This document shows positions 37,090 through 64,000 of a stretch of DNA of 64,000 bases, in pieces (position 1 is the stretch's first letter; each line of letters begins with the position of its first letter). The translations under genes were made by a program, and so were the position numbers. This DNA comes from Naegleria gruberi (lineage: Eukaryota). The stretch lies in NCBI GenBank assembly GCA_000004985.1, contig GG738909.1. The stretch is one strand, 5' to 3'. Below the pieces are notes generated by a model, which ran no database searches, was not told the origin of the DNA, and worked only from the letters and a program-made list of their open reading frames with translations.

Positions 37090-39816
37090 ATGCAAATGCT
37101 TCACATTTTGATAATAAGCGTTTTCCTCACGTTGTTGACACCAGCCATATGTCAATTTATTCCACCTGATATTGAAGTCAAACCTATTATTACTGGCCTA
37201 AAGGGACCCTCTTCACTCTTTTACCAACACGACAGTCTCTTCATCCTAGCAACTAATCAACAAATTCTACTCAAGACAGACTTTCAATCAAAGCCAAACA
37301 TTATTCTTGGCATTAACAACACTTTTGGATACAATGGAGATGGAAAACTTGCAAAGGACACCACTTTAAGTAATCCTCACGGTTTACATGTGAATGGCTC
37401 GTTCATTTATATTCCAGATAAATGGAGTCAGCGCTTGAGAATGGTCAACAAGGAAACAATGATTGTTCAAACAATTGCTGGAAATGGAATCTGTGGTTTC
37501 AGTGGTGATGGACAAAAAGTTGGAGTGCCAAATACACAATTGTGTAATCCACAAGGAGTTTTTGTGGAGAAAAATGAGATTTATATTGCAGATACTTTCA
37601 ACAATAGAATTAGAAAGATAGATTCGAATAATTTTCTTTCGACTGTTGTAGGGTCTAGCTCAATTGGTGGGTTTTCAGGGGATGGAGGTCTAGCAACAAA
37701 CGCCAAACTCTTTAGACCTGAATCTGTATTTGTGTATATGAATCAAGGCCAAACTGATATATTGATTGCCGACACTTTTAATAATAGAATCAGATTAGTC
37801 AAGAATGGTATAACCTCAACAATAGCAGGCGGAAATACCCAAGGATACAATGGAGATGGTATTCTTGCTAAAGATGCGTATCTATGTCAACCTAGCTCTG
37901 TATTTGTTACAACAGTTGGTGAAAGTCTTATTGCTGATTATTGTAATCACAAAATTAGAAGAATTTTCACAAATGGAACGATAACTAGTTTACCAATACA
38001 GGTCAGATATCCAAAATCCATTTTTCTTGATCAAACAAATGGCAATCTTTACATCTCTGAATTGGTTGATGGGACAGTTCAACAAGTGACATTTTACTGT
38101 AAAGAAGGATACAAATTGAATGATTTTCTTGTATGTGAACCTGTTTGCCAACAATCATGCAATACGAAAGGTAAATGTTTGGCTCCTGATGTTTGTGAAT
38201 GTCAGGACAGATACTATGGTGAGTTCTGTGAGGAGTTTACATGTTTTGGAATCTCAAAGGATCATCCAATGGTTTGTTCTGGACATGGATCTTGTATTTC
38301 TCCTGATTCATGTGAATGTGAAGTTAATTACTTTAACAGTAACTGCTCAGCAACTTCTTGCTTTGGAAAGAACTCAACCGAGCCATCTGTTTGCAATTCA
38401 CATGGTAAATGCACTTTATTCAACACATGTAAATGTGAATTCAACAAATATGGTGGCAATGAGTGTGAAATTCCTCTATGCAATGGAAAAAACTCTTCAG
38501 ATCCCAATGCATGCTCTGGTAATGGATTCTGTAGCACTGTCGTTTCTCCCGCTTCATGCATTTGCACTCGAGATATGAGTGGAGCATATGTAGGATCTGA
38601 TTGTCAATACCCAACCTGTATTTCAATCCCCTCTTACGAACCGAGAGTTTGCAGTGGAAATGGTCGTTGCTATGGATTTAATTTGTGTGAATGCAAAGAA
38701 GGATACGAAGGACTGTTTTGTGAATCAGTTACATGTGGAACTGGTTGCAAGATAGCTGCTTCAATTCCTGCGAGCGTTGTAGTCGGAGTTTGTGGTGTTA
38801 TTAGTTTGGTTTTGTTTCTGACGAGAACGAAACTGAAAGAATTTGCTAAAAAGCTCACATATACTGAACTTAAAGATATAGAGATAGTACCTTATCAACA
38901 TTTCTACATTGCTACAGAAGATGAAAAATACGAATACAAACTCAAAAGAATATTAGGAAAGGGAGGATTTGGTAAAATTTATGTTTTTGATGAGATTAGT
39001 GATGGGCAAACCATTGAAGTTGCAGTGAAAATCGTTGAGTCAGTTGATATGTCTGTTCTTAATGAGCCTACAACTATGAGTAGGTTACAACATACCCATA
39101 TTGTACCTATTCGTCGTTTTACAATTGTTGGTGATGGAAAGTATACTTGTTTAATTATGCCACTGTATCTCTGTGATTTGAGAAAGTGGTCTCAAAGCTC
39201 ATTGATGACCATTGAACTGATTATTGAAATTGTTAAGCAAACTGCCTTCAATATCTGCACAATATGAATATGGTCCATAGAGATCTGAAACCAGAAAACA
39301 TACTAGTTGAATCTCCAAATCCTTCACAGGATACGATCATTGATATATCCTCATTCCACTTGCGTGTTGGCGATTGGGGATCAGCCAGATTCGAATCTGT
39401 TGAGACAAGCAATGGTTTCACAGCACAGTACTGCTCACCAGAACATTTTCAAGAAGGAATAACTTCCTGCAACAAGAGTGATATTTGGAGTCTTGGATGT
39501 ATTCTCTATCAATTACTCTCATCAGATTACGAATCGAAACTAAATGTAGTGAAACAAAAAACTCAAAGTGATGAAGACGATAAGGAAATTAGGGAAACAG
39601 TAAGGGGAATGACCAAACTGGATGATTCATTCAAGCTTAATTCCATGTGTGATTTAATGCTAAATATGATCAAGTTCAACCCAGAGGAAAGGTAAGTTTG
39701 CTTTGAATCTAATAATCTTAATCATAATGGATAGAATATCTGCTGATGAAATATTGCACAGATTGAGTACCATTAATAATCAGTCAATGGATATAGCTCA
39801 GAATTCTGGCAATTAA
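37090..39816 (+). CDS. Receptor-like Ser/Thr protein kinase. Layout: signal peptide, NHL beta-propeller, 7-8 EGF/tenascin-type Cys repeats, TM, kinase. The catalytic domain is interrupted by a -1 frameshift near 39250. The final small exon 39735..39816 follows a 43-nt intron.
   Basis: Signal MQMLHILIISVFLTLLTPAIC. NHL units (FNNRIRKIDS..., ADTFNNRIRLV..., YCNHKIRRI). EGF-like CxxxGxCxxxxxCxC repeats. TM VVGVCGVISLVLFLT. Kinase motifs LGKGGFGKIY..VAVKIV. The frame then changes between ...LIIEIVKQTA and LQYLHNMNMVHRDLKPENILV..DWGSA..., which are two overlapping track ORFs (37090..39267 and 39264..39695). Then ...FNPEER|GTAAGT..ATAG|ISADEILHRL. Confidence 0.75.
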
Positions 39817-41193: not shown

Positions 41194-42176
41194 TTAATGT
41201 TTATGATCCAATTCGAATATGTAAAAGTCATAAACTGGTTTGAAACCAAACTTTTCATAAATTCCAATTCCCATTTCAGTTGCTTCTAAAACCATTTTCG
41301 TGTAACCTAATTGTTTGGCCATGTCTATCATTGAAACCATGAGAATGGTTGCAAATCCTTGGTTTCTGTGTCCATCACGAGTTGCCAAATGATTAATAGA
41401 AGCAACATGTTTTCCCATCACTAATTTTCCACAAGCAACTATTTCCACTTGTCCATTCGAAAGTTTTTGCTTAATTCCAACAGTGAAACTTTTCACAGAC
41501 GAATCTGGAGCAACTGTCGAAGTATCATTTCTAATAATTTCCTTCAAATTATCAGAAATTTGTGGAACACCACTAAATGCATCGGATTGACAAGTCCAAA
41601 ACTGAACCATTTCCTCTGGACTTTTCATTTCTACCAATTCGAATGATTTCTTCTCATTTTCACAAATCTTTCGTCCAGAAAATATTGGAATTGACGAGTA
41701 TTCCATATTTTCCACCATCCATCTTCTCTTTTCCTGATAATATTCAGTCAAATCTTGAATTTGTAAAAGCATGACAGTTTGCATTGTCAAGCTAGAAAAG
41801 CATTCTTTCAAATTCATCTTTTCAAGCTAGAAAAGCATTCTTTCAAATTCATCTTTTTGTAAATGTAAGTGGAGCCAAATTTCAATCGTTCTTGAACTTT
41901 TTCACTCCACAGCAATTGGTATTCTTGTAAGAGAGTCAAATTTTCACTTGTGGCCATATTAATCTTGCAATAATAAAACTGTGGAGTGCCATTGAGTCCT
42001 AAATTTGAAATCCTCGTGGCTGTGTCCATCACATCCTTGGTGTATCCACCAAAAACCTCCAGATACTCCAATCCTACCAATTCAAAGTGACTCATCGTGG
42101 CGTGAGAAGTCGTAAACTCTGCAAAACTATCCTGCACCATACTCATGAGTGCATTCTCTCCTTCCAAACTTGCCAT
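41194..42176 (-). pseudogene. GNAT-family N-acetyltransferase gene split into two ORFs by a frameshifting 35-bp perfect tandem duplication
   Basis: Downstream ORF (41194..41817) carries the GNAT acetyl-CoA motif RNQGFATILMVSMIDMAKQLGYTKMVLEATEMGIGIYEKFGF. The upstream ORF (41814..42176) ends ...YIYKKMNLKECFSSLKR*. The downstream ORF begins MNLKECFSSLTMQTV, because the segment is duplicated. Deleting one copy restores a single ORF of about 315 aa. Confidence 0.6.
41787..41856. repeat. Perfect 2 x 35-bp tandem duplication (tcaagctagaaaagcattctttcaaattcatcttt) inside the GNAT gene
   Basis: Direct reading of 41787-41821 versus 41822-41856. 35 is not a multiple of 3, so the duplication frameshifts the reading frame. 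Confidence 0.85.
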
Positions 42177-53104: not shown

Positions 53105-56100
53105 ATGGATATGCGTGGATTGTCAGTGTTCATTTCCGACATTAGAAAATGTTAGTATATTGTTTTTTTGTTGGTTTTTTAACTGGCTTTTGGATATGAT
53201 GTTTTTGTTGTTGTTGTTTAAATATTCTTGTCATTATTAATTATAATCGATCCTGATCGTATTGTTGTATTATAATTACTTCCTTTTCAACAATACCAAT
53301 ACGATATTTAACAATGATTTAACTTGTGGATTATACACTCAACAATAATAATACAATAACAAAATAATAACAACAACAAATACTTGCGCGATGATACAAT
53401 AATTGCTCGCTGCTCTATCCAACACCTCTATTGTTGGTCGTCATCGATAATAACAACAACAAAATTTTTATTAATATTACACAATAATTAACAGCAACTA
53501 CAAAGGAAGAAGAACAATCTAAAGTAGAAAAAGAATTAGCCAAGATCAGAGGTAAATTCAAGAATGGTGGAGCTCTTAAAGGATATGATCGTAAGAAGTA
53601 TATCTGTAAATTGCTCTATATTTACATGCTTGGTTATGAAATTGAATTTGGTCACATTGAAGCCGTCAATTTGTTGGCTTCACCAAATTACTCTGAAAAA
53701 CATATGGGTTATCTTGCTTGTTCATTGTTGTTGAACGAAAATCACGAAATGGTTACACTTATTACCCAATGTATGAAGAATGATTTGAATAGCAAAAATC
53801 CAAATGATCAATGTTTGGCACTTACAGCTATTGCCAACATTGGTGGTAAGGAACAAGCTGAAGCTCTTGCTCACGACGTACAAAAATTGCTCATCTCCAA
53901 CGAAACCAAATTGACTGTCAGAAAAAAGGCTGCTCTTACTCTCTTGAATTTGCATAGAAAATACCCAGAAAGTTTGCCTCCAGATTCTTGGTCCGAAAAG
54001 GTTATTGCTCTTATCAATGGTAGAGATCTTGGTGTTATTACCAGTGTTATGAGTTTAATTTTGGGACTTGCCGAAAAGAATCCAGAAGCTTATCAAGATG
54101 CAGTTTCAAAGACTGCTCGTTTATTGATGAAGTTGGTTTTGAACAGAGAATATTCTACATCATATTTGTACTACAAGATTGCTGCCCCATGGTTGCAAGT
54201 TAAAGCTTTCCAATTACTCCAATACTACCCAGTTCCAGAAGATAAGGCCATCTATGACTCTATCATCCAAGCTATTGAAAAAGTTATTCAAATTGCTAAG
54301 AAATCAAAGGAAACTACATCAAAGAGTGTGAGTCAAATTAATGCTGCTCACAGTGTTCTCTTCGAAGCAATGAATCTTGCTATTCACTACGATTCATCAA
54401 AGACAATCTTGGTGACAGCTTGTTCCATGTTAACTAAATATTTGAAGGATAGAGAAACTAACTTGCGTTATCTTGCTCTTGATACTCTCTCACGTATGGC
54501 TTACTCTCAATTCGATGAAGTTTTGGCTACTATCAGAAAGGAACAAGATACCATTTTACTTGCTTTGAAGGATCCTGATATCAGTATTAGAAGAAGAGCT
54601 CTCGATTTGTTGTACAGTATGTGTAACAGAGATAATGCTGGTGAAATTGTTGGTGAATTGCTCAACTATTTGCCACTTTCCGACTATGCTATCAGAGAAG
54701 AATTGGTTTTGAAGATTGCCATTCTTGCTGAAAAGTTCTCTGTTGATCTCACTTGGTATGTCGATGTTGTTCTCAATTTGATTTCCCAAGCTGGTGACTT
54801 TGTTGCTGATGATATTTGGCACAGAGTTATCCAAATCGTCACAAACAAGGGTGAAGAATTACAAAAGTACACTGCTCAAACTGTTTTCAGTGCTGTTTCT
54901 TCTCCAGCTGCTCATGAAACTTGTGTCAAGATTTCTGGTTACATTTTCGGTGAATTTGGTGACTTGATTGCTGATAATCCTCAAACTGATGCTTTTTCTC
55001 AATATGAATTGATCTTGTCCAAGTTCAACTTGTGTTCAACCACTACTAAGTGTCATTTGTTCAACTCTTTGATGAAGTTGTACAATTTGTATCCTGATAA
55101 CCAAGGACTCCGTGATAATATTAAGGATGTTTTCGAAAAGCACACCAATTCTTTCGATGCTGAATTGCAACAAAGATCTGCTGAATATTTGGCTCTCATC
55201 AATACTGGTGATGAAGATCTTATTCAAGCTGTCATGGATAACATGCCAATGTATCCAGAACGTGACTCTCAAGTCATTAAGAGATTGATGGAAAAAGAAG
55301 CTGCCAAGAAGCGTGGTGCTACTGGTACAGGAAGAGAAAACAACGAAGACGAAGAAGAAGAAAATCCAGATTTGGATGTTCAAGTACCTGAAACCAAACA
55401 AGGTGGAAATGATTTGTTGGATATGCTCGATATGGGTGGTTCTTCAAATAACAATAATGCTGGAGGATATAGTATGGATGACATTTTGGGAGGATTTGGT
55501 GGACCAGTTTCTCAACCACAACCAACTAATAATGGAGGAGGTTTGAGCATGGACGATATTTTGGGAGGATTTGGTGGACCAGTTACTCAACCACCTGTTC
55601 AACAACCACCACAAAACAATGTTGGTGATTTCTTTGGAGGAGGTGTTAACATTGCTGCTCAAGCTGCCAACATGGGTAAGCAAAAGAAGGAACAAAGAGA
55701 TACTACCGGATTCAACTTTGATGATGTTGTAGTTGCTAACAGAGATAATGCTCTTGAACAAAACGAACAAGTCCATCAAGACGCTGCTGTTAAGCATCAA
55801 GTTTTGCTCAAGTCTAACGAAGGTGTTGCCATTGAAGACGAACATTTGCAAGTCAAGATTAAGACTGAATATCACGGATGTAAGGGTAGACTTATTCTCC
55901 TCTATGGTAACAAGACTACTAATCCATTGACTCAATTCAAGGTTCACATTCTCGTTCCAAAGGAATTGGAAGCTCAAATTTCCAAGGTTCCACCAATGAT
56001 TTCACCAAAGACTCAAGTCCAACAATACGTTGACTTGGTTGCTAAGGGCCCATTCAGCCAATTGACTGATTTGGATTTGTACTTTGAAGCTAATCGTAGA

Positions 56101-56502
56101 TATTACAGATTCAACATCAAGTTGCCAATCGTTCCACACAAGTTTGTTGAACCATTGGTCATCCAAGGTGCTGAAAACTTCTTTAAACAATGGCACGCAA
56201 TTGGAAAGGAACAAGAAGTCCAAAAGATTTTCCCATGCACTCCTGTATATTCTGATGTAAATGCCTGTGCTAAGGTTTTGTCTGAAGGTTTCCGTTTGGC
56301 CATTTTGACTGGTATTGACAATCCAAGTAATATTGTTGCTGCTGGTTCTTTCTTCTATGATCCTGTTGGTAAGGTTAACGTTTTATTACGTCTTGAATAC
56401 AATGCTCCAAAGCAAGCTTACAGATTAACTGTCAAGGCTCAAGATGCCACTATTGCTCAACAAGTTTTCAATTACATCTTACAAGAACTCACCTCCCAAT
56501 AA
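53105..56502 (+). CDS. ap2a1: AP-2 complex subunit alpha (alpha-adaptin). Two exons: 53105..53150 and 53495..56502.
   Basis: Exon 1 is MDMRGLSVFISDIRK, followed by donor GTTAGT, a 344-nt intron and acceptor TTAACAG|. Exon 2 begins STTKEEEQSKVEKELAKIRGKFKNGGALKGYDRKKYICKLLYIYMLGYEIEFGHIEAVNLL, collinear with human AP2A ([55 protein letters not shown]). HEAT/ARM trunk, G/Q/P-rich hinge, C-terminal appendage. Confidence 0.85.
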
Positions 56503-56677: not shown

Positions 56678-59181
56678 TTACTCCAAAGTATTATTTGGAG
56701 ATAGGTAGGCTTCTTGATTGATTGTCAAGGTAATATTATCATTGTTTCTTGTTGGTGTTTTGGGTTCATTCAATGTTTCAAGATTTGCAGAATTTTTCTT
56801 TTGTAAAATGTTTAAACTTGTTCTCAACATGTCAGTGAAGGATGGAACAAGAGCTGGAGTGTGATGTTTCTCATGCAACATGTAAGCAATACATTCACCT
56901 TTTCCTTTCACATTTAAATGTCTTTCTTCAAAAGTGAAACCCAAATCATAAACTCTTTCGTAGGTTGATCTGGAAATTTGAATTCTTCCTGGAATTGAAT
57001 TAGATTCCATTCTTGAAGCTGTATTAATTGTATCTCCCCATAAATCCTATTTAATTAAATATTAAGATGAAGTATTGAAAATGTACATGTTAAAATGTTA
57101 AAATGTTGAAATTAAAAACATACATATGCAAATTTCTTCCTCCCAATAACACCTGCAATAACACTTCCAGTATTAATACCAACACGAATATTAATTTGTT
57201 CAGATGGATGTTTTCCTGATTTTGAATTAAATCTTTGTAAAACATCAAATGTATCAATGGAAAATCTCAAAATTCTTTCAGGATGATCTGATTGTGCATT
57301 CAATCCATGTAATCCACCCACACAAAAATATGAATCTCCAATCGTTTTAATCTTTTCCAAATTATACTTGTCTGTCAAATCATCAAATCCAATTACAATT
57401 TCATTCAACATTTGAACCAATTCAGATGCTTGAATTCCAGTACTCAATTTTGTAAATCCCACCATGTCACTAAAAAAACATGAAACATCATTGAATTTCT
57501 CTGCAATATAAGTTTCTCCTGATTTCAATTTACTTGCTACTGCACTTGGTAAAATATTCAATAATAATTCTTCAGAATGTTTCTTTTCTTCTGTCAATAA
57601 TGAATTATGTTTCTTCTCTGTTGTAATATCCTTAATGAAACAAGTTACAACACTTTGAGAATTGTGAAGAGTGGCAAAAATATTGACACGTGATGGGAAG
57701 CTTGTTTGATTCTTTCTGATACATTCCAATTCAATAGAATCTCCTTTCGAATCACCTCTTGCTGCATTCACCAACATTTCATCAATGAGGTTTTTAATTT
57801 TCGATTGCTCATTCTTTTCAAATAATTGATACAATGATCTTCCAATCGTTTCTGTTTGATTGTATCCAAATATCTTTTGAGCTGCTGGATTGAATATTTC
57901 AATATCAACCTTCTCTCCACTGCACATCACTGCTCCATCTACAGATGCATTCAAAATGCTTCGAACTTTTGAGTCACCTTCCCCTAAATTTGACTTCTTT
58001 TTGAGGAGGGAAGACAATGTATTTGGAATATGGTGATGTACAATGTAATTCTTGATATTTTCATTAGAATCCATTAACTCAATTGATAAATAGTTAAAAA
58101 GAAGACGAAGTTGTTGGACAGAGTTGGCATGTTGATGTAAGGACCAACGAATGGCAAGTGAAATGGAGATAATTGCAATAAATCCAACGAAACTGAATGC
58201 GTAGACAAGTTCTTCATCAGTTATGGCAGCATCTTTTGAAAAAACAGTAGAAAAATCAATCAATTGATCTGAAATGGCTCTGGAAAGATGGAAATGTTTA
58301 ACAAACGTTTCGAACAGCTTCAAGTTATTAATTTTTCCGTTTTCATCCATTAGCTCCATTATTTCATTGGAAATTGTGACGAAATTTGTAATCATATCAT
58401 CAATTCCCATAACGCACGAATGATTACCATCTTCTTTAAACATGTCAGTCAATGTACAATTTTCCTGACCTGCCACGAGTAAATTTACATCATCAAATTT
58501 TCCAAGTATGGTATTTTCTGGATTCTCTCCAATGGATGTTCCATAAATACATAAATTCCAATGGTTTTTCAAGTCACTTGATTTTTCAGTAACATAATGC
58601 TTTGGATTGGATGTAAAATTGTATAAATTAGAAACTCTGAAGAAAGCATCATTGTTGGAGCGAAATCCAGATATAATATACTTCTCAGTGATAAAATTAC
58701 TCAAATATTGAATATCTTCAAAAGTTTGGAATGATTCTTTCATAATAACATAGGATCCGTAACATTGATTCACATTTTGTAAAGTTTCCAATAAGAATAG
58801 CCCACAACAAACTGAAACAATTAGAGAGAGAATAAGAGCCAATACAACTACAACACTCCTTGGATATTTCCAAACACTCTTGACTGGATGAGTTGATGTA
58901 TCATCATTGACTACCTTACTCAATTCATGGAATAATCTTCCTGCATCATTTTTTGAAACATTCTTCTCAATGAGAAGAACTATCTTTGTTATAACAGATA
59001 GATCTAACTTAGAGTAGAATACATAAAGAGATGTATAGAGGAAGTAGACTGTCACAATGATGGAAAAGTAAATGATAAAAGTATTAGTAATTAGTTGAGT
59101 TTCATCCTTTGAACTGGAAACAAAATTCACACAAAAATCAGAATAGGCAGTAACCATTCTCTCGGAATTAAAGTACTGCAC
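56678..59181 (-). CDS. ACG-like sensor nucleotidyl cyclase. Layout: TM, extracellular domain of about 230 aa (CHASE-like), TM, PAS-like region, class III adenylyl/guanylyl cyclase catalytic domain. Last intron 57123..57047. Probably continuous with the 59208..62087 ORF through a 41-nt intron.
   Basis: Cyclase motifs FSDMVGFTKLS, KIKTIGDSYFCVGGL, INIRVGINTGSVIAGVIGRKKFAY|GTATGT..AAATAG|DLWGDTINTASRMES. PAS-like IFNPAAQKIFGYNQTETIGRSLYQLF. Two TM helices flank a Cys-containing extracellular segment of about 230 aa. Confidence 0.75.
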
Positions 59182-59207
59182 ATGATTAGAATAAAACTCT
59201 AGAACAA

Positions 59208-62087
59208 CTAACTTACCAATAACATAAAGGGATAACTTGACAGAAAACTCTCTAGGTCTGCTAGTCCAAATTTAGAAATAGTTTCAGAGTGTGTATAGAA
59301 TAAATTTGTAATATCTGCAATAGTGGTATTAGTAGTGGTCGAAATGTTATAAACCTTATCGATTTCTGTTGCTGGCCATGAAGTTGGTAAATTGAAAGTG
59401 TAATAAATTTCATGATATTCAGAGTACATTTCCTGTGTGAATTTTCCGTCATGAACCAATTCTCGCACTGATTTCAAAATGTCCCTGTAAGTATTAATGT
59501 GTTCTAACATTTCTTCATGATAATGTTCCAAAGAAGTATATCCATACTTGGACATGACATTCATCCATTCAACCATTGAGTGATTGTACAAATATGTGAT
59601 TGGTTGAAAAGCTCTCATACTAGACATGATCTGAACAGAGGCGCCAACTGGAGCACAAGCTGTTTCCACTATTTTAACAGTGCCTGAAATATAGGATGAG
59701 AATGAAACACTCAAAGCCAAACTAACACTCAAAAACAAGATGGAAAATAAGACAAATAGAGAGAAGAGGAAAACTTGGAGAGTGTGTCTGTGTGGAAGGC
59801 TCAGTGAAGTTCTGAATACGTTTTCCTTTCTAAATTCTGGATTATTCTCAATTCCATTGAATTCTGGATTGGTTTCTGCCTCTTTCTGATCGCCATAGAA
59901 TGAACTGCTCTCACTTCTAATGTCGTGTTCCTGGAGATGGATACCAATATTTGGGCCTTCTTGTGTTGGAACTATTCTGTTTTTAAACTTGGACTTTTGA
60001 TTCCTCTTCTTTCTTAATTGAGCATTTCTTTTGGTTTCTTCCTCTTCCAAACTTGATGCTTCAGCATACAGCTCTTGAGCAGCATCCTTATTAAACTTGA
60101 ATTCTTCAATGTATTTGGCAAAATTTCGTAATAAATTCTTGTCATTCTTATAAATTGCCAACATGTTCAAAAACTTGGTTTCACATTCATTGGAAATAAT
60201 TCCCATTCTTACAATGATTGATTCAATCTTATCCCTCAAGACACATTCCTGGAGCATTTCCTTCCAGAACATTCTGTGAAGGGCTTTCAATTCATTTTGT
60301 CTCCTTTCGAGAATGAACATTACTTCACTCATTTCTTCAGTATTTTTGGCATTTGGATTAATTTGATGAACTATAATGTCAACTTCCTTCTGTTTCAAAT
60401 AGATGAGGAATCTATACCATGTATTTGGTCTCTTTTTTATGGCTCTCCTTAAAATTCCTTTGGAAAATGTTGTGGCATTGACATCATTTACGAGACAATT
60501 TGATGCTATAGAACTTGATAAGAGAAGAATATCATTATCGAGTTGTGAGTTGAGTGATGATATACCTCTAACAAGAGAAAGAGACATTTTCAGATTGCTC
60601 AACATATTTGGATTGCTGGAAAGAGTTGGATCTTCTTCATCTGTTGGAATCTTTTCCTTAATGGAGAATTTCAAAAAAAGTTTCAGATAATTCAACTTTT
60701 TGGATTCTAGAAAGTATTGGTAAATATTAATGGAATCCTTCTCGATTGCCTTTTCCAGTAAATCAGGGAAACCATTATTAGATTCATTTCTAATACCTTC
60801 AATTACAATAAATCGAACACTTCTAATCAAAATTCTTGTAATCGCCTCCATTACCATCATTCCAACAAAAAAAGAGATGATAATCATTGCCAAAGTCATT
60901 CCAGCTAGACCAATTCCCAGCACATTATCAACTGACTTGTAAATTGCCGAAAGATTTGGATTATTTACAACGCCACTAATTAGAGAACCAAAACTTGAGA
61001 AGATCCTTGCAGATAACACTCCAACCATAATGGAATTCTCAAATCTCTTAAAATATGGAACGTTTTTCGAAAAACCAATCATTAAACCAATCGAAACTAT
61101 CAAATGCACAATCGATCTGATAAATGCATACTGAGGAGGAATCACATAATGTGAAAGAATTTGGAATTGAGTACAAATCATTGTTCCAATAAGGAAAATT
61201 GGATGATCAGAAGTGAATGGAGAAAAGTGTTGGGGATGACAATTCGTCACAATTAATAGAGAAAAACATGATAATATCATTTGAATGATTATTCCAATAA
61301 TCATGATGGCCATGAAGGCAATATTAATAGTTGAATAACATTCAATGTTCTGGTTTGAATATTGTAAAAAACGGTTGAGAACTGAGACAGAACCAAGATT
61401 ACAATCAAGTGGTGTTGTCAATAGGTAAACAGCTGGAAGAGAAACGAGTAGAAAAAGTTTCGAACCAAGGGCCAAACCTTTCTTTGTCCATTTCAAATAT
61501 TGAGAAGTTGTTTTGTAAGCATACACACTCCAAACCAAGTAAACAATAAATAACAGCTCTACAGCTATAACCACAAACGCTAGAGCCAACGAACCTATAT
61601 AAGGTAACCTTTCGAATGATAAAGTCAAAGGATAGTTCAATACAGAAAAAACCCATGTTCCCCACTCTCCGTATTTCATTTCCATTCCAAGATTTGGCAA
61701 GAATATACCAATCCAAAATACATAAGTATGAAATAGTAAACTAATCAAATAGGAATATAGACCTTCTCTTAATTGTGCCTCTTGCATGAAGAATATAAAA
61801 TCCATAAGTTGATTTCTGAGCTTGATTCCAATCGAAATCTCAGAGCCAGTAATATCTGTTGTTGAATATTTGGAATGTTGGGACGAGAAGGATACATTTG
61901 ATGAGCTAGAGGTATGTTGTCCATGAACTGAGGGAATATTCAGATAACTTGTTGGAGTCGTCTGGTTTCTAGCAACGGTTGACCCACGACGTGAAGTACT
62001 AGCAATAGAGATTGAATCCTCTTCTATGGCAATATTGTTGTTGTTAGTATTATTCAATTGATTTATACTAGCATTGGGATGCAACAT
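59208..62087 (-). CDS. Large multipass membrane protein: about 9 N-terminal TM helices, a cytosolic region of about 330 aa, then further TM and an extracellular segment. The C-terminal end is most likely spliced (59216..59176 intron) onto the ACG-like cyclase ORF downstream.
   Basis: The ORF ends ...SYPFMLL followed by GTAAGTTAG (the stop is inside a consensus donor). A CAG acceptor sits 41 nt later, in frame with YFNSERMVTAYSDF... of the next ORF. Hydrophobic helix clusters at residues about 100-440 and about 750-775. No family recognised. Confidence 0.55.
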   Translation of the reverse strand: MLHPNASINQLNNTNNNNIAIEEDSISIASTSRRGSTVARNQTTPTSYLNIPSVHGQHTSSSSNVSFSSQHSKYSTTDITGSEISIGIKLRNQLMDFIFFMQEAQLREGLYSYLISLLFHTYVFWIGIFLPNLGMEMKYGEWGTWVFSVLNYPLTLSFERLPYIGSLALAFVVIAVELLFIVYLVWSVYAYKTTSQYLKWTKKGLALGSKLFLLVSLPAVYLLTTPLDCNLGSVSVLNRFLQYSNQNIECYSTINIAFMAIMIIGIIIQMILSCFSLLIVTNCHPQHFSPFTSDHPIFLIGTMICTQFQILSHYVIPPQYAFIRSIVHLIVSIGLMIGFSKNVPYFKRFENSIMVGVLSARIFSSFGSLISGVVNNPNLSAIYKSVDNVLGIGLAGMTLAMIIISFFVGMMVMEAITRILIRSVRFIVIEGIRNESNNGFPDLLEKAIEKDSINIYQYFLESKKLNYLKLFLKFSIKEKIPTDEEDPTLSSNPNMLSNLKMSLSLVRGISSLNSQLDNDILLLSSSIASNCLVNDVNATTFSKGILRRAIKKRPNTWYRFLIYLKQKEVDIIVHQINPNAKNTEEMSEVMFILERRQNELKALHRMFWKEMLQECVLRDKIESIIVRMGIISNECETKFLNMLAIYKNDKNLLRNFAKYIEEFKFNKDAAQELYAEASSLEEEETKRNAQLRKKRNQKSKFKNRIVPTQEGPNIGIHLQEHDIRSESSSFYGDQKEAETNPEFNGIENNPEFRKENVFRTSLSLPHRHTLQVFLFSLFVLFSILFLSVSLALSVSFSSYISGTVKIVETACAPVGASVQIMSSMRAFQPITYLYNHSMVEWMNVMSKYGYTSLEHYHEEMLEHINTYRDILKSVRELVHDGKFTQEMYSEYHEIYYTFNLPTSWPATEIDKVYNISTTTNTTIADITNLFYTHSETISKFGLADLESFLSSYPFMLLVS

Positions 62088-62563
62088 GTTTTTTTGTAGT
62101 TGTTTTGTTGTAGACTTTCGTTTGGAATGAATCTAAGAATTATTTTCTAATCCATTGTTTGAAACTTTCTGATTTAAACTTGATAGAGAATTTGGATATA
62201 AATAGAAATATTAAGCAGTGTACCGTTAGAATTTAAAATACAATAATGAGCTAGATGTGTTTTCAGGTAATGCACATATACAGATTATGTAATTCTTGAA
62301 GAAGTATTAAATAACTTCATTTAACTTCATTTAGCTAGAATGCTAGCACCATACAATTATACATCAGATTGATTCATTATGAAAACATGTCTGTGTCCAT
62401 TTAAATACAGTTCCCTGTTTGCATTCCGTGCTTGTAATATAATAATAATTACTATCATCATTAGTGATAATTATCACTACATATTCGAAAAATCAGCTGC
62501 CAAGTATCATCTGTAGTTTTTTTTACGTTATTTTTGGTGGGAAATTTTTAGGGAAAGTTTTCT

Positions 62564-63926
62564 GTGGAGGAGTGTGATAAAATTTTCAAAGCAATAGATA
62601 AACCAAATTTATATCTTCTAACAACGTTTCTTAAAAAACCAATAGATATGCAAAGGAAAAGGGACTTGTGGAAGCAATTTGATAACATGATTCAGAAAAT
62701 GTCAATTCAACAAAAGAAAAAAACATCAATTCATATTTGTGGAATTTCATCATTAGGGAAATGTGCCAATACAATTTCCAATCGGCAATGGATTATTTCT
62801 ACTTGGTGAAGAGAAAATCTAGCTTTATTGGAGAAGTACACTTTGAATAATTTATTAAATTCGTGCAGTACTTTTGGAACGTGGGAGGCTGAGTTTATAT
62901 TTCGAAACATTGAGGCACGTGACAAGTTTCATTATTCCTGCTACATCAAAGCTGGATGCACCACAAAAGAATCTGCTTTAAAGCTGGAAGAATTAATTAT
63001 TAATAGTGGATTTTTCAATGATATAATTGTCCAAACAAGCCTCATTTCTATGTTCTCCAAGTGTGGGTTATTAGAAAGGTCTATTGAACTGTTCAACAGC
63101 ATGGAGAAGAAACCAACAGCAAGATGGAATGCAATGCTTTCCGCATACGCACATCACTCTCTTTACAATGAAGTACTACTGTTATTCAGCGAGATGGAGG
63201 AATCTTCAATTGAGACGGACAAGCAAACTTTTAGCTATGCTATTCTAGCCCTATCGAGTCTTGGAAAATCTCACTATCATGCACTAATCAAGGGATGTAT
63301 TAACAGTTCGAATTTCTCAAGCTTTGAATGTTTTAGAGCTGATGAAAAGAAAGCGAATTCCACTAAGCTCTCGAATATTTATATCACTCATGAATGAATG
63401 CATCAAAAGTGGTATTTTGTATGATGCAAAAGTTTTACATCAAGAAATTGTTGAAAATCTACCTTCTTTTTTGTCTGATCCCTTTCTGGTAGTGTCATTA
63501 ATTAATATGCTTGGTTGTTTCAATCAGTCCCAGGCAGTATTGGATGTTTTTGGTGGGTACAATGGACAAGATGTGGCCGTGTTAAATGTTACATTGTCAG
63601 CTCTTTACAAGGATGGTTTAATTCATAATGCTCTCAATCTATTCTATGAAAATACGAAAAATTACAAGTTTGATGAAAAAACATTTACAATTATTTTAAC
63701 AATGTGCAAAGACATGCAAAACGACGATAGTGTAAAGGGTCAACAATATTTTGAAATGATGAAACAATATGAAGTTGAACCAAATATCTTCCATTATACA
63801 TGTCTTATCAAGTGTTTTCTCTCAGAAAAGCAATTTGAAAGGGCTCTGGATATTCTCTTTGATATTCATTTGAAAGGAATTCTAATTGATGATGCTTGCT
63901 TTAACTCTTCCGGGGGGTCTCTTTAA
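62564..63926 (+). pseudogene. Plant-type PLS-class pentatricopeptide-repeat (PPR) protein gene, with an in-frame TGA (62807-62809) and a +1 frame change near 63300. Either disrupted or mis-assembled. The 3' end may continue past the last stop.
   Basis: PPR/PLS-like units: SLISMFSKCGLLERSIELFNSMEKKPTARWNAMLSAYAHHS, EVLLLFSEMEESSIETDKQTFSYAILALSSLG, ALNVLELMKRKRIPLSSRIFISLMNECIKSGILYDAKVLHQEIVEN, DVAVLNVTLSALYKDGLIHNALNLFYENTKNYKFDEKTFTIILTMCKD. Three track ORFs (62564..62809, 62828..63397 and 63324..63926) are separated by one stop and one frame change. Confidence 0.6.
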
Positions 63927-64000
63927 ATCATGATCATTATGAAAATTACAATGGAATTGCATCAAATAATCATCACGATGAAGGAAACTTTTCATTCTTC

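What the first reader, a model, noticed from the sequence alone, without database searches (positions are those of the whole stretch)
62564..63926. Plant-type (PLS-class) PPR gene in an amoebozoan-like genome, carrying an in-frame TGA and a +1 frame change
The repeats have the KCG...A..VFD.M....V.SWNAMI..Y and TFS..L.AC..LG flavour typical of land-plant PLS/DYW-type PPR editing factors. That family is patchily present in a few protist lineages, including some amoebozoa, plausibly by horizontal transfer. Here the gene is punctuated by one TGA (W*RENLALLEK...) and a frame jump between HYHALIKGC and ALNVLELMKRK. Neither can be explained by introns, because the gaps are under 20 nt. So it is either a decaying copy or something needing translational recoding or RNA-level correction. 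The C-terminus, where a DYW deaminase would sit, may extend beyond the 63926 stop into a further exon.
Basis: partly seen in the sequence, partly recalled or inferred. Interest (0 to 1): 0.6.

Follow-up and report, generated by a model that had tools for sequence, protein, structure and literature searches.

The report
Decaying plant-type PPR pseudogene in Naegleria
This is a broken, unannotated copy of a plant-style (PLS-class) RNA-binding repeat gene in the amoeboflagellate Naegleria gruberi; the species has been known since 2010 to carry this gene family, so the copy is most likely an ordinary young pseudogene rather than a case of recoding.

Summary
The sequence features are real. PPR repeats run from 62834 to 63893. 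A TGA sits at 62807-62809, and the reading frame moves +1 between 63299 and 63320, inside a PPR motif that Pfam recognises once the frame is repaired.

The genome is Naegleria gruberi (Heterolobosea, Discoba), not an amoebozoan. Eleven DYW-type PLS PPR proteins are already published for this species.

The repeats are PLS-type. The motif order is L-L-S-P-(half L)-P-L-S-P-L2-S2, and the second block has the canonical lengths 36/31/35/36. All best database hits are land-plant PLS proteins at 33% identity or less. No E or DYW motif lies within the window; the ORF ends at TAA 63924-63926, and nothing past 64000 could be read.

Introns do not explain the lesions. The window's real introns are 41-136 nt with GTAAGT or GTATGT donors.

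The key evidence is an independent metagenome contig from a sister strain, 98.8% identical across the neighbouring gene. It lacks window 62552-63532, the 5' two thirds of the PPR gene. All 9 differences in the 291 shared nucleotides change an amino acid, whereas the neighbouring cyclase gene has omega about 0.16.

Verdict: a decaying, dispensable PLS-PPR pseudogene. This is a new member of a known kind and of low interest.

The parts
62564..62806 (+). Upstream frame-2 open stretch of 81 codons, with its first ATG at 62648. It may be the degenerate N-terminal or presequence region of the former gene.
   Evidence: ORF list. Only weak Pfam hits (TPR_At1g68980, E = 0.042). No PPR motif in any frame. 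Frame 2 is the best of the three frames by codon usage but falls below the gene range.
62807..62809 (+). TGA stop in frame with the downstream PPR repeats (W*RENLALLEK). It is either a premature stop or the upstream boundary of the ORF.
   Evidence: No in-frame ATG follows until about 63047. The only frame-keeping intron candidate that removes it (62806-62868, donor GTGAAG) would also delete a recognisable L motif.
62834..63022 (+). Two L-like PPR motifs in frame 2: KYTLNNLLNSCSTFG... and YSCYIKAGC...INSGFFNDI.
   Evidence: The plant-trained L1 matrix hit at 62840 lies above the 99.99th percentile of the window null. tblastn alignments to plant PLS proteins cover the region. The second motif is assigned from those alignments and by eye; it was not detected by the matrices.
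63023..63115 (+). S-type PPR motif of 31 aa: IIVQTSLISMFSKCGLLERSIELFNSMEKKP.
   Evidence: S1 matrix 46.3 bits against 16.3 for P1. hmmsearch S1 gives 29.8 bits. Pfam PPR/PPR_2 hits.
63116..63220 (+). P-type PPR motif of 35 aa: TARWNAMLSAYAHHSLYNEVLLLFSEMEESSIETD.
   Evidence: P1 matrix 46.7 bits against 5.2 for S1. hmmsearch P1 gives 35.7 bits. This is the best Pfam PPR_2 stretch.
63221..63271 (+). Half motif (KQTFSYAILALSSLGKS) that looks like the first helix of an L motif.
   Evidence: L1 matrix hit at 63227 above the 99.99th percentile of the null. Plant L2 motifs align here only with a gap.
63272..63371 (+). PPR motif split by the frame change: HYHALIKGCINSSNFS in frame 2, then (Q)ALNVLELMKRKRIPLSS in frame 0.
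   Evidence: The repaired peptide scores 26.6 bits, E = 6e-6, against Pfam PPR model positions 2-31.
63299..63320 (+). The 22-nt interval in which the +1 frame change must occur. It equals a 1-nt insertion or a 2-nt deletion and lies next to a TTT run.
   Evidence: Frame translations. Frame 0 opens only at 63288, and the motif halves fix the interval. The only GT..AG options here are 16 or 25 nt with donors GTTCGA or GTATTA, whereas real introns are 41-136 nt with GTAAGT/GTATGT donors.
63372..63893 (+). Frame-0 block of five motifs with canonical PLS lengths: L (36 aa, 63372-63479), S (31, 63480-63572), P (35, 63573-63677), L2-like (36, 63678-63785) and S2-like (36, 63786-63893).
   Evidence: Matrix hits: L1 at 63375, S1 at 63486, P1 at 63573, P1 at 63681 (assigned L2 from the gapped L2 hit at 63732-63782), and S2/P1 at 63786-63789. 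Pfam PPR_2, PPR, PPR_3 and PPR_long hits.
63894..63926 (+). Short tail ACFNSSGGSL followed by a TAA stop. No E1, E2 or DYW follows within the window.
   Evidence: No E_motif or DYW Pfam hit. No E1/E2 matrix or HMM hit. No GTAAGT/GTATGT donor in the PPR region (my reading).
62552..63532 (.). A 981-nt segment, holding the TGA, the frameshift and the 5' two thirds of the repeats. It is absent from the sister-strain metagenome contig L002, where 32 unrelated nucleotides take its place.
   Evidence: blastn of L002 against the window. The 3' breakpoint cuts an S motif that is continuous in the window, so the window holds the ancestral state.

Best explanation
The locus is a young, unannotated pseudogene of a plant-type PLS-class pentatricopeptide-repeat gene in the nuclear genome of Naegleria gruberi.

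Its ancestor most likely encoded a mitochondrial RNA-binding protein of the family that specifies C-to-U editing sites. Each P, L or S motif contacts one RNA base (inferred from the plant family, not tested here).

In the strain of the window, the gene carries a 1-nt insertion or 2-nt deletion inside a repeat, at 63299-63320. It probably also carries a premature TGA at 62807. In a sister strain the 5' two thirds of the gene have been deleted outright. The copy is therefore dispensable and is drifting without selection. No recoding, tiny intron or RNA repair needs to be invoked.
For: Shown:
- Organism: the AP-2 alpha ORF in the window is 100% identical to the NCBI N. gruberi protein (over 59% of the query), 87% to N. 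lovaniensis and 76% to Willaertia. Other window genes carry DUF4116 and PAS-cyclase domains.
- PPR and PLS identity: Pfam PPR/PPR_2 at 1e-11 to 1e-13. The S, P and L motifs are discriminated by plant-trained models, and the second block has lengths 36/31/35/36. Most of the 46 word-index hits carry E or DYW domains. Exhaustive HMMER finds lycophyte, fern and conifer PLS proteins at 33% identity or less.
- The frameshift lies inside a real motif.
- Introns are excluded: nine plausible introns in the window are 41-136 nt, all with GTAAGT or GTATGT donors, and no such donor lies near either lesion.
- The assembly is not indel-prone. Across about 4.9 kb of adjacent cyclase coding sequence there is no indel against the independent contig L002; the indels that exist fall in an intron and in the spacer.
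- L002 lacks 62552-63532.
- In the 291 shared nucleotides there are 9 nonsynonymous and 0 synonymous differences (pN = 0.038). The cyclase next door has 16 nonsynonymous and 27 synonymous differences (pS = 0.026, omega about 0.16). Fisher p = 0.00056.
- No annotated protein from any source covers the locus.
- Codon-usage signal is below the range of neighbouring genes.

Background from the literature: N. gruberi has 11 DYW-type PPR proteins but only two confirmed editing sites, so factors are in surplus (PMC4202320).
Against: - The two main ORFs, 189 and 200 codons, are still open in AT-rich DNA, so any inactivation is recent. A functional gene with two sequence errors cannot be formally excluded.
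- The nine substitutions cannot be polarised. At least two of them (G to S in KDG, Y to C in QYEVEP) hit consensus positions in L002, so the relaxed constraint is shown for the L002 lineage more securely than for the window's own allele.
- L002 is a short-read metagenome assembly. Its deletion junction, with 32 nt of filler, was not verified with reads.
- The status of the TGA depends on the unproven coding nature of 62564-62806.
Confidence: 0.8

Rival explanations
1. The gene is functional, and the TGA and the frameshift are sequencing or assembly errors, or belong to one defective haplotype that was merged into the assembly.
For: Only two lesions occur in about 1.3 kb. Both sit next to short homopolymers: AAAA at 62814-62817 and TTT at 63312-63314. 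The flanking ORFs of 189 and 200 codons are still open. Two other genes in the window also have frame disruptions.
Against: There are no indel differences in about 4.9 kb of adjacent coding sequence against an independent Illumina-type contig. A sister strain has lost the region altogether, and the retained part shows 9 of 9 nonsynonymous changes. One of the other disruptions is a perfect 35-nt tandem duplication, which is not a typical base-calling error.
Confidence: 0.1
2. The gene is expressed through recoding. The TGA would be read through or decoded as selenocysteine or tryptophan, a programmed +1 ribosomal frameshift would restore the frame, or the mRNA would be corrected by editing.
For: Both lesions are single events that preserve long ORFs on either side. 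I recall from my own knowledge, not checked here, that Naegleria has selenocysteine machinery.
Against: No SECIS or frameshift element was found in 61500-64000. By my reading there is no slippery or stop-stimulated motif in 63299-63320, and frame 2 stays open to 63397. All 9 other ORFs of 700 aa or more in the window are intact under the standard code, so TGA is not reassigned. The kinase frameshift elsewhere in the window goes the opposite way (-1), as expected of random indels. The region is deleted in a sister strain.
Confidence: 0.02
3. Unconventional introns remove the lesions. Candidates are a 16- or 25-nt intron at 63297/63306-63321 and a 63-nt GTGAAG...GTGCAG intron at 62806-62868.
For: GT..AG pairs with the right phase exist. 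The acceptor TCGTGCAG resembles that of the cyclase intron, CATGTGCAG.
Against: The nine plausible introns in the window are 41-136 nt and all use GTAAGT or GTATGT. The 63-nt candidate would delete a statistically supported L motif. The 16- and 25-nt candidates would shorten a motif that scores as a complete PPR repeat only when the 'intron' is kept.
Confidence: 0.03
4. The locus still makes a shorter PLS protein from the downstream ORF alone, for example from ATG 63342 (MKRKRIPLSS...), as a truncated but functional RNA binder.
For: The ORF 63342-63926 is open. It starts with a basic, presequence-like peptide and holds five motifs with canonical PLS lengths.
Against: The sister strain has removed its start and first two motifs, and the remainder shows 9 of 9 nonsynonymous changes. 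Its motifs score weakly, 16 bits or less, against 46-47 bits for the central S and P motifs. No gene model exists.
Confidence: 0.05

Closest known systems
Naegleria gruberi DYW-type PLS PPR proteins (11 genes; Knoop & Ruedinger 2010, as cited in PMC4202320) with plant-type mitochondrial C-to-U editing
   Same: Same organism. Same repeat class, with P, L and S motifs of plant type. The database affinity is also plant-like, to early land plants, with one rotifer hit.
   Different: No E1, E2 or DYW domain lies within the window. The reading frame is broken. The locus is not annotated, and no protein in the collections exceeds 33% identity to it, so it is not a recent duplicate of a listed paralogue. 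I could not obtain the 11 published sequences for a direct comparison.
Land-plant PLS-class PPR RNA-editing factors (E and DYW subclasses)
   Same: The motif order runs ...L-S-P-L2-S2 with lengths 36/31/35/36. The signatures SKCG...A..LF..M and WNAML.AY are present. The best hits are Diphasiastrum, Ceratopteris and Cryptomeria PLS proteins.
   Different: Identity is only 22-33%. One internal triplet is irregular, with a half L motif followed by a P/S2-like motif. The copy lacks the C-terminal E/DYW module, sits in a heterolobosean nucleus, and is non-functional as it stands.
Acrasis kona DYW-type PPR genes (12; PMC4202320)
   Same: A second heterolobosean with a lineage-specific expansion of plant-like PLS-DYW genes that far outnumber its known editing sites.
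   Different: Those genes are intact ORFs with a recognisable E/E+/DYW terminus and PG box. None of these features is seen here.
Ordinary unitary or polymorphic pseudogenes of expanded gene families
   Same: A premature stop plus a frameshift in one strain and a large deletion in another, nonsynonymous changes at or above the neighbour's synonymous rate, and weak codon bias.
   Different: Nothing substantive. The only distinguishing point is the horizontal-transfer pedigree proposed for the family.

Membership tests
PPR repeat family (Pfam PF01535 / PF13041) | Tandem ~35-aa helix-turn-helix repeats that score above the curated Pfam thresholds | tested here: met
   PPR_2 scores 49.8 and 42.8 bits (cutoff 30), and PPR scores 47.0 and 30.7 bits (cutoff 25), on the two ORFs.
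PLS subclass of PPR proteins | Alternation of P (35 aa), L (35-36 aa) and S (31-32 aa) motif variants | tested here: met
   Motif models trained on plant PLS proteins separate S (46.3 against 16.3 bits) from P (46.7 against 5.2 bits) and place L motifs between them. The second block has lengths 36/31/35/36. The models were seeded with consensus strings I recalled from memory and then rebuilt on 212 retrieved plant proteins, so this is a home-made test, not the published PPRfinder.
PLS subclass of PPR proteins | Nearest relatives are PLS rather than P-class proteins | tested here: met
   Most of the 46 hits carry PF20431, PF20430 or PF14432. The top hits of the exhaustive search are lycophyte, fern and conifer PLS proteins.
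E/E+ subgroup | E1 and E2 motifs directly after the S2 motif | tested here: not met
   There is no PF20431 or PF20430 hit and no E1/E2 matrix or HMM hit after 63893 in any frame. Only 106 nt remain after S2 before the window ends.
DYW-type editing factors | C-terminal DYW cytidine-deaminase domain (PF14432, HxE...CxxC zinc site) | tested here: not met
   No PF14432 hit within the window. The ORF stops at TAA 63924-63926. Sequence beyond 64000 could not be fetched, so a downstream exon is not testable with these tools.
Functional protein-coding gene | Uninterrupted ORF after removal of bona fide introns, evolving under purifying selection | tested here: not met
   There is a frameshift at 63299-63320 and a TGA at 62807, with no consensus intron. 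Differences from the sister strain are 9 nonsynonymous to 0 synonymous, against 16 to 27 in the neighbouring gene.
Programmed +1 frameshift or selenocysteine recoding | Slippery or stall site at the shift, a SECIS element for UGA, and conservation of the arrangement in relatives | tested here: not met
   No Rfam SECIS or frameshift element. No stop or recognised slippery heptamer in the shift interval (my reading). The arrangement is not conserved, because the segment is deleted in L002.
   The AP-2 alpha ORF is 100% identical to N. gruberi, 87% to N. lovaniensis, 76% to Willaertia and 54% to Acrasis, but only 40-48% to the amoebozoans listed (Planoprotostelium, Cavenderia, Dictyostelium). The lineage is Discoba; Heterolobosea.

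The most novel reading that the evidence does not exclude
The window's allele may not be dead. It could be rescued at the RNA or translation level, by +1 frameshifting plus UGA decoding, or it could yield a truncated PLS protein from ATG 63342 that works in trans with a separate DYW protein. The sister-strain deletion would then be a strain-specific loss. A milder version is that this is a natural snapshot of a horizontally acquired editing-factor family being pruned because only two editing sites remain.
Probability: 0.04. Interest if true: 0.6.

Novelty: new member of a known kind. Interest (0 to 1): 0.2.

Why it matters
Plant-type PLS/DYW PPR genes in Naegleria are a textbook example of a patchy, probably horizontally transferred family. 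N. gruberi carries 11 such genes for only two known editing sites.

A copy caught in decay, with different lesions in two strains, fits the idea that the surplus is being lost. It could also be added to inventories of the family. Beyond that it is an annotation detail and opens no new mechanism.

Tried and rejected
1. Heterotrich-ciliate idea (UGA read as Trp plus 15-16-nt introns, as in Blepharisma or Stentor), which would have explained both lesions. Rejected: the window's introns are 41-136 nt with GTAAGT/GTATGT donors, and the organism is Naegleria.

2. My own idea that frame 1 (SYLWNFIIREMCQYNFQSAMDYFYLVKRK, 62731-62820) is the true frame upstream, which would make the TGA off-frame. Rejected: there is no Pfam hit, no HMM or matrix hit, no tblastn hit in that frame, and worse codon usage than frame 2.

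3. Internal-deletion idea for the frameshift, in which an S motif and half a P motif were lost between two L motifs. It is less well supported than a simple indel, because the repaired junction scores as one complete Pfam PPR repeat.

4. Fetching N. gruberi DNA beyond 64000. Exact-product look-ups failed for two window ORFs and for the NCBI AP-2 alpha model.

5. Synteny in N. lovaniensis around AP-2 alpha. No shared neighbours and no PPR were found.

6. JGI metagenome scans, by protein (no relatives) and by a 20-mer (two contigs). The two contigs proved to be unrelated chance matches.

7. The primary papers could not be read: the one DOI I tried was not held and a title search did not list the 2011 RNA-editing paper. 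PRJEB11402 appears in no held paper.

8. The Rfam scan found nothing relevant.

Full report
**Observation.** The window holds three adjacent + strand ORFs: 62564-62809 (frame 2, ending in TGA), 62828-63397 (frame 2) and 63324-63926 (frame 0). Pfam confirms PPR repeats, with PPR_2 and PPR at E = 3.7e-13 and 1.8e-12 on the frame-2 piece, and 5.6e-11 and 3e-07 on the frame-0 piece. The literal observation is therefore confirmed.

**Organism.** GC content is 31-38% throughout. Genes are dense and mostly single long ORFs. Other ORFs carry DUF4116 and PAS-adenylate/guanylate cyclase domains. The AP-2 alpha ORF (53611-56499) is 100% identical to the NCBI Naegleria gruberi protein over 59% of the query. 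It is 87% identical to N. lovaniensis, 76% to Willaertia, 54% to Acrasis, and only 40-48% to the amoebozoans listed. N. gruberi belongs to Discoba; Heterolobosea, so the 'amoebozoan-like' attribution is wrong. This matters for novelty. [quoted passage not shown] That paper reports 11 such genes and two verified mitochondrial C-to-U editing sites, and it interprets the family as horizontally acquired from early land plants.

**Repeat class.**
- The word-index search returned 46 proteins. Nearly all were land-plant PPRs carrying E (PF20431), E+ (PF20430) or DYW (PF14432) domains, plus one rotifer protein, at about 22% identity.
- The exhaustive HMMER search of 1.84 billion representatives gave 11,607 hits. 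None of the best 150 exceeded 33% identity. The named top hits I looked up were Diphasiastrum, Ceratopteris and Cryptomeria PLS proteins.
- I built P1, L1, S1, L2, S2, E1 and E2 motif models. They were seeded with consensus strings from memory and rebuilt on the 212 retrieved plant proteins. I scanned all frames with them, using the rest of the window as the null.
- In frame 2 the hits are L at 62840, S at 63029 (46.3 bits, against 16.3 for P), P at 63116 (46.7 bits, against 5.2 for S) and L at 63227.
- In frame 0 the hits are L at 63375, S at 63486, P at 63573, a P1 matrix hit at 63681 assigned L2 from the gapped L2 hit at 63732-63782, and S2/P at 63786.
- Motif lengths in the second block are 36/31/35/36, the canonical PLS pattern.
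- Nothing scored at or above 3 bits in frame 1 or on the reverse strand.

The PLS reading is supported.

**The frame change.** Frame 0 opens only at 63288. The half motifs HYHALIKGC (frame 2) and ALNVLELMKRK (frame 0) confine the shift to 63299-63320. The repaired peptide YHALIKGCINSSNFSQALNVLELMKRKRIP matches Pfam PPR positions 2-31 at 26.6 bits, E = 6e-6, above the curated cutoff. A 1-nt insertion or 2-nt deletion therefore sits inside an otherwise complete repeat.

**Introns.** A search for strong donors flanked by long open frames found nine plausible introns in the window. They are 41-136 nt long and all begin with GTAAGT or GTATGT (junctions). The GT..AG pairs that could bridge the PPR frames are 16 or 25 nt, or have donors such as GTCTTG or GTTCGA. 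The only frame-keeping candidate that removes the TGA and little else is 62806-62868, with donor GTGAAG. It would delete the statistically supported L motif at 62840.

**The TGA.** It is in frame with the repeats. However, no PPR motif is detectable in the 81 codons upstream in any frame. Pfam gives only E = 0.04 to a TPR/PPR-like family. Codon usage upstream is best in frame 2 but intermediate: -0.03 per codon, against 0.36 +/- 0.18 for genes and -0.72 for off-frames. No in-frame ATG lies between the TGA and about 63047, so a working gene would have needed the upstream part. The TGA is probably a premature stop, but it could simply be the upstream edge of a remnant. I first suspected that frame 1 was the true upstream frame; every test rejected that.

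**Independent strain.**
- A chimeric query built from three other window genes retrieved one protein, P0333 (ENA, 959 aa, 99% identical to the cyclase N-terminal ORF). Its 6104-nt metagenome contig is L002.
- L002 matches window 56852-62400 at 98.8% identity and 62396-62551 at 93%. After 32 unrelated nucleotides it resumes at window 63533-63824 at 96.9%. The sister strain thus lacks 62552-63532, which holds the TGA, the frameshift and two thirds of the repeats.
- The 3' breakpoint cuts an S motif that is continuous in the window, so the window holds the ancestral state and L002 a derived deletion.
- In the shared 291 nt there are nine differences, and all of them change an amino acid (S = 55, N = 236 sites; pN = 0.038). 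The adjacent cyclase exons show 27 synonymous and 16 nonsynonymous differences (pS = 0.026, pN = 0.004, omega about 0.16). Fisher p = 0.00056. The PPR remnant is changing at about the neutral rate.
- The two assemblies show no indel in about 4.9 kb of cyclase coding sequence. Their indels fall in an intron and in the spacer. This argues against a generally indel-prone assembly as the cause of the PPR frameshift.
- Caveats: the substitutions cannot be polarised, and at least two hit consensus positions on the L002 side. The L002 junction has not been checked with reads.

**C-terminus.** After the S2-like motif comes ACFNSSGGSL and then TAA at 63924-63926. There is no E or DYW Pfam hit, no E1/E2 model hit and no consensus donor in the PPR region. 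I could not obtain sequence beyond 64000, so a further exon remains untested. Nothing in the window suggests one.

**Explanation.** The best-supported account (confidence about 0.8) is a young pseudogene of a PLS-class PPR gene. Its ancestor would have been a sequence-specific organellar RNA binder of the editing-factor family; this function is inferred, not tested. The copy is now interrupted in this strain and largely deleted in a sister strain. The reported surplus of DYW/PLS genes over editing sites in N. gruberi makes such loss unsurprising. The rivals are sequence error in a live gene (0.10), a truncated protein from the downstream ORF (0.05), unconventional introns (0.03) and recoding or RNA repair (0.02). 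For the last, there is no SECIS or frameshift element, I saw no slippery site, and TGA is not reassigned, because all 9 other ORFs of 700 aa or more in the window are intact under the standard code.

**Comparison and novelty.** The locus meets the tests for the PPR family and the PLS subclass. It fails the tests for E, DYW and intact-gene status within the window. It is not a recent copy of any protein in the collections, since none exceeds 33% identity. I rate it a new, defective member of a known kind. It is of interest mainly for family inventories and as an example of turnover in a horizontally acquired family. Interest 0.2.

Noticed in passing
window 37090-39695 (+), junction 39235-39267: A receptor-like gene with NHL and EGF repeats and a kinase domain has that domain split by a -1 frame change within about 30 nt (IVKQTA | LQYLHNMNMVHRDLKPEN). 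Pfam Pkinase positions 1-107 fall in one ORF and positions 118-251 in the next. There is no room for an intron, so this is a second disrupted gene in the window.
   Followed up: partly
window 41787-41857 (gene on the - strand, 42176-41194): A perfect 35-nt tandem duplication (2.0 copies, 100% match) shifts the frame of a gene whose C-terminal part is a GNAT acetyltransferase. The peptide KMNLKECFSSL is read twice in different frames.
   Followed up: partly
window 37090-39695, 41194-42176, 56678-62087: A query joining the kinase, the GNAT gene and the first 400 aa of the PAS-cyclase gene found no NCBI N. gruberi protein at E <= 1e-40; it found only an ENA metagenome ORF. These three genes therefore seem to lack models in the public N. 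gruberi proteome, although AP-2 alpha in the same window has one.
   Followed up: no
L002 (ENA ERZ929261, contig k127_477457) against window 62294-62551: The sister-strain contig carries a 76-nt insertion at window ~62400 and several small indels in the divergent promoter region between the cyclase and the PPR remnant. Identity there is 91-93%, against 98.8% across the cyclase gene.
   Followed up: partly
L001 (N. lovaniensis PYSW02000010.1) against window 43000-64000: Apart from AP-2 alpha itself (87% amino-acid identity), no neighbouring gene is shared between N. lovaniensis and the N. gruberi window. Gene order around this locus is not conserved between the two species.
   Followed up: partly
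window 56678-62087 (- strand): A large multi-exon gene with a 959-aa membrane/TPR_TmcB-like N-terminal exon, PAS domains and a guanylate/adenylate cyclase domain. Its introns are 41 nt (59216-59176) and 77 nt (57123-57047). It diverges head-to-head from the PPR remnant across a spacer of about 480 nt.
   Followed up: partly
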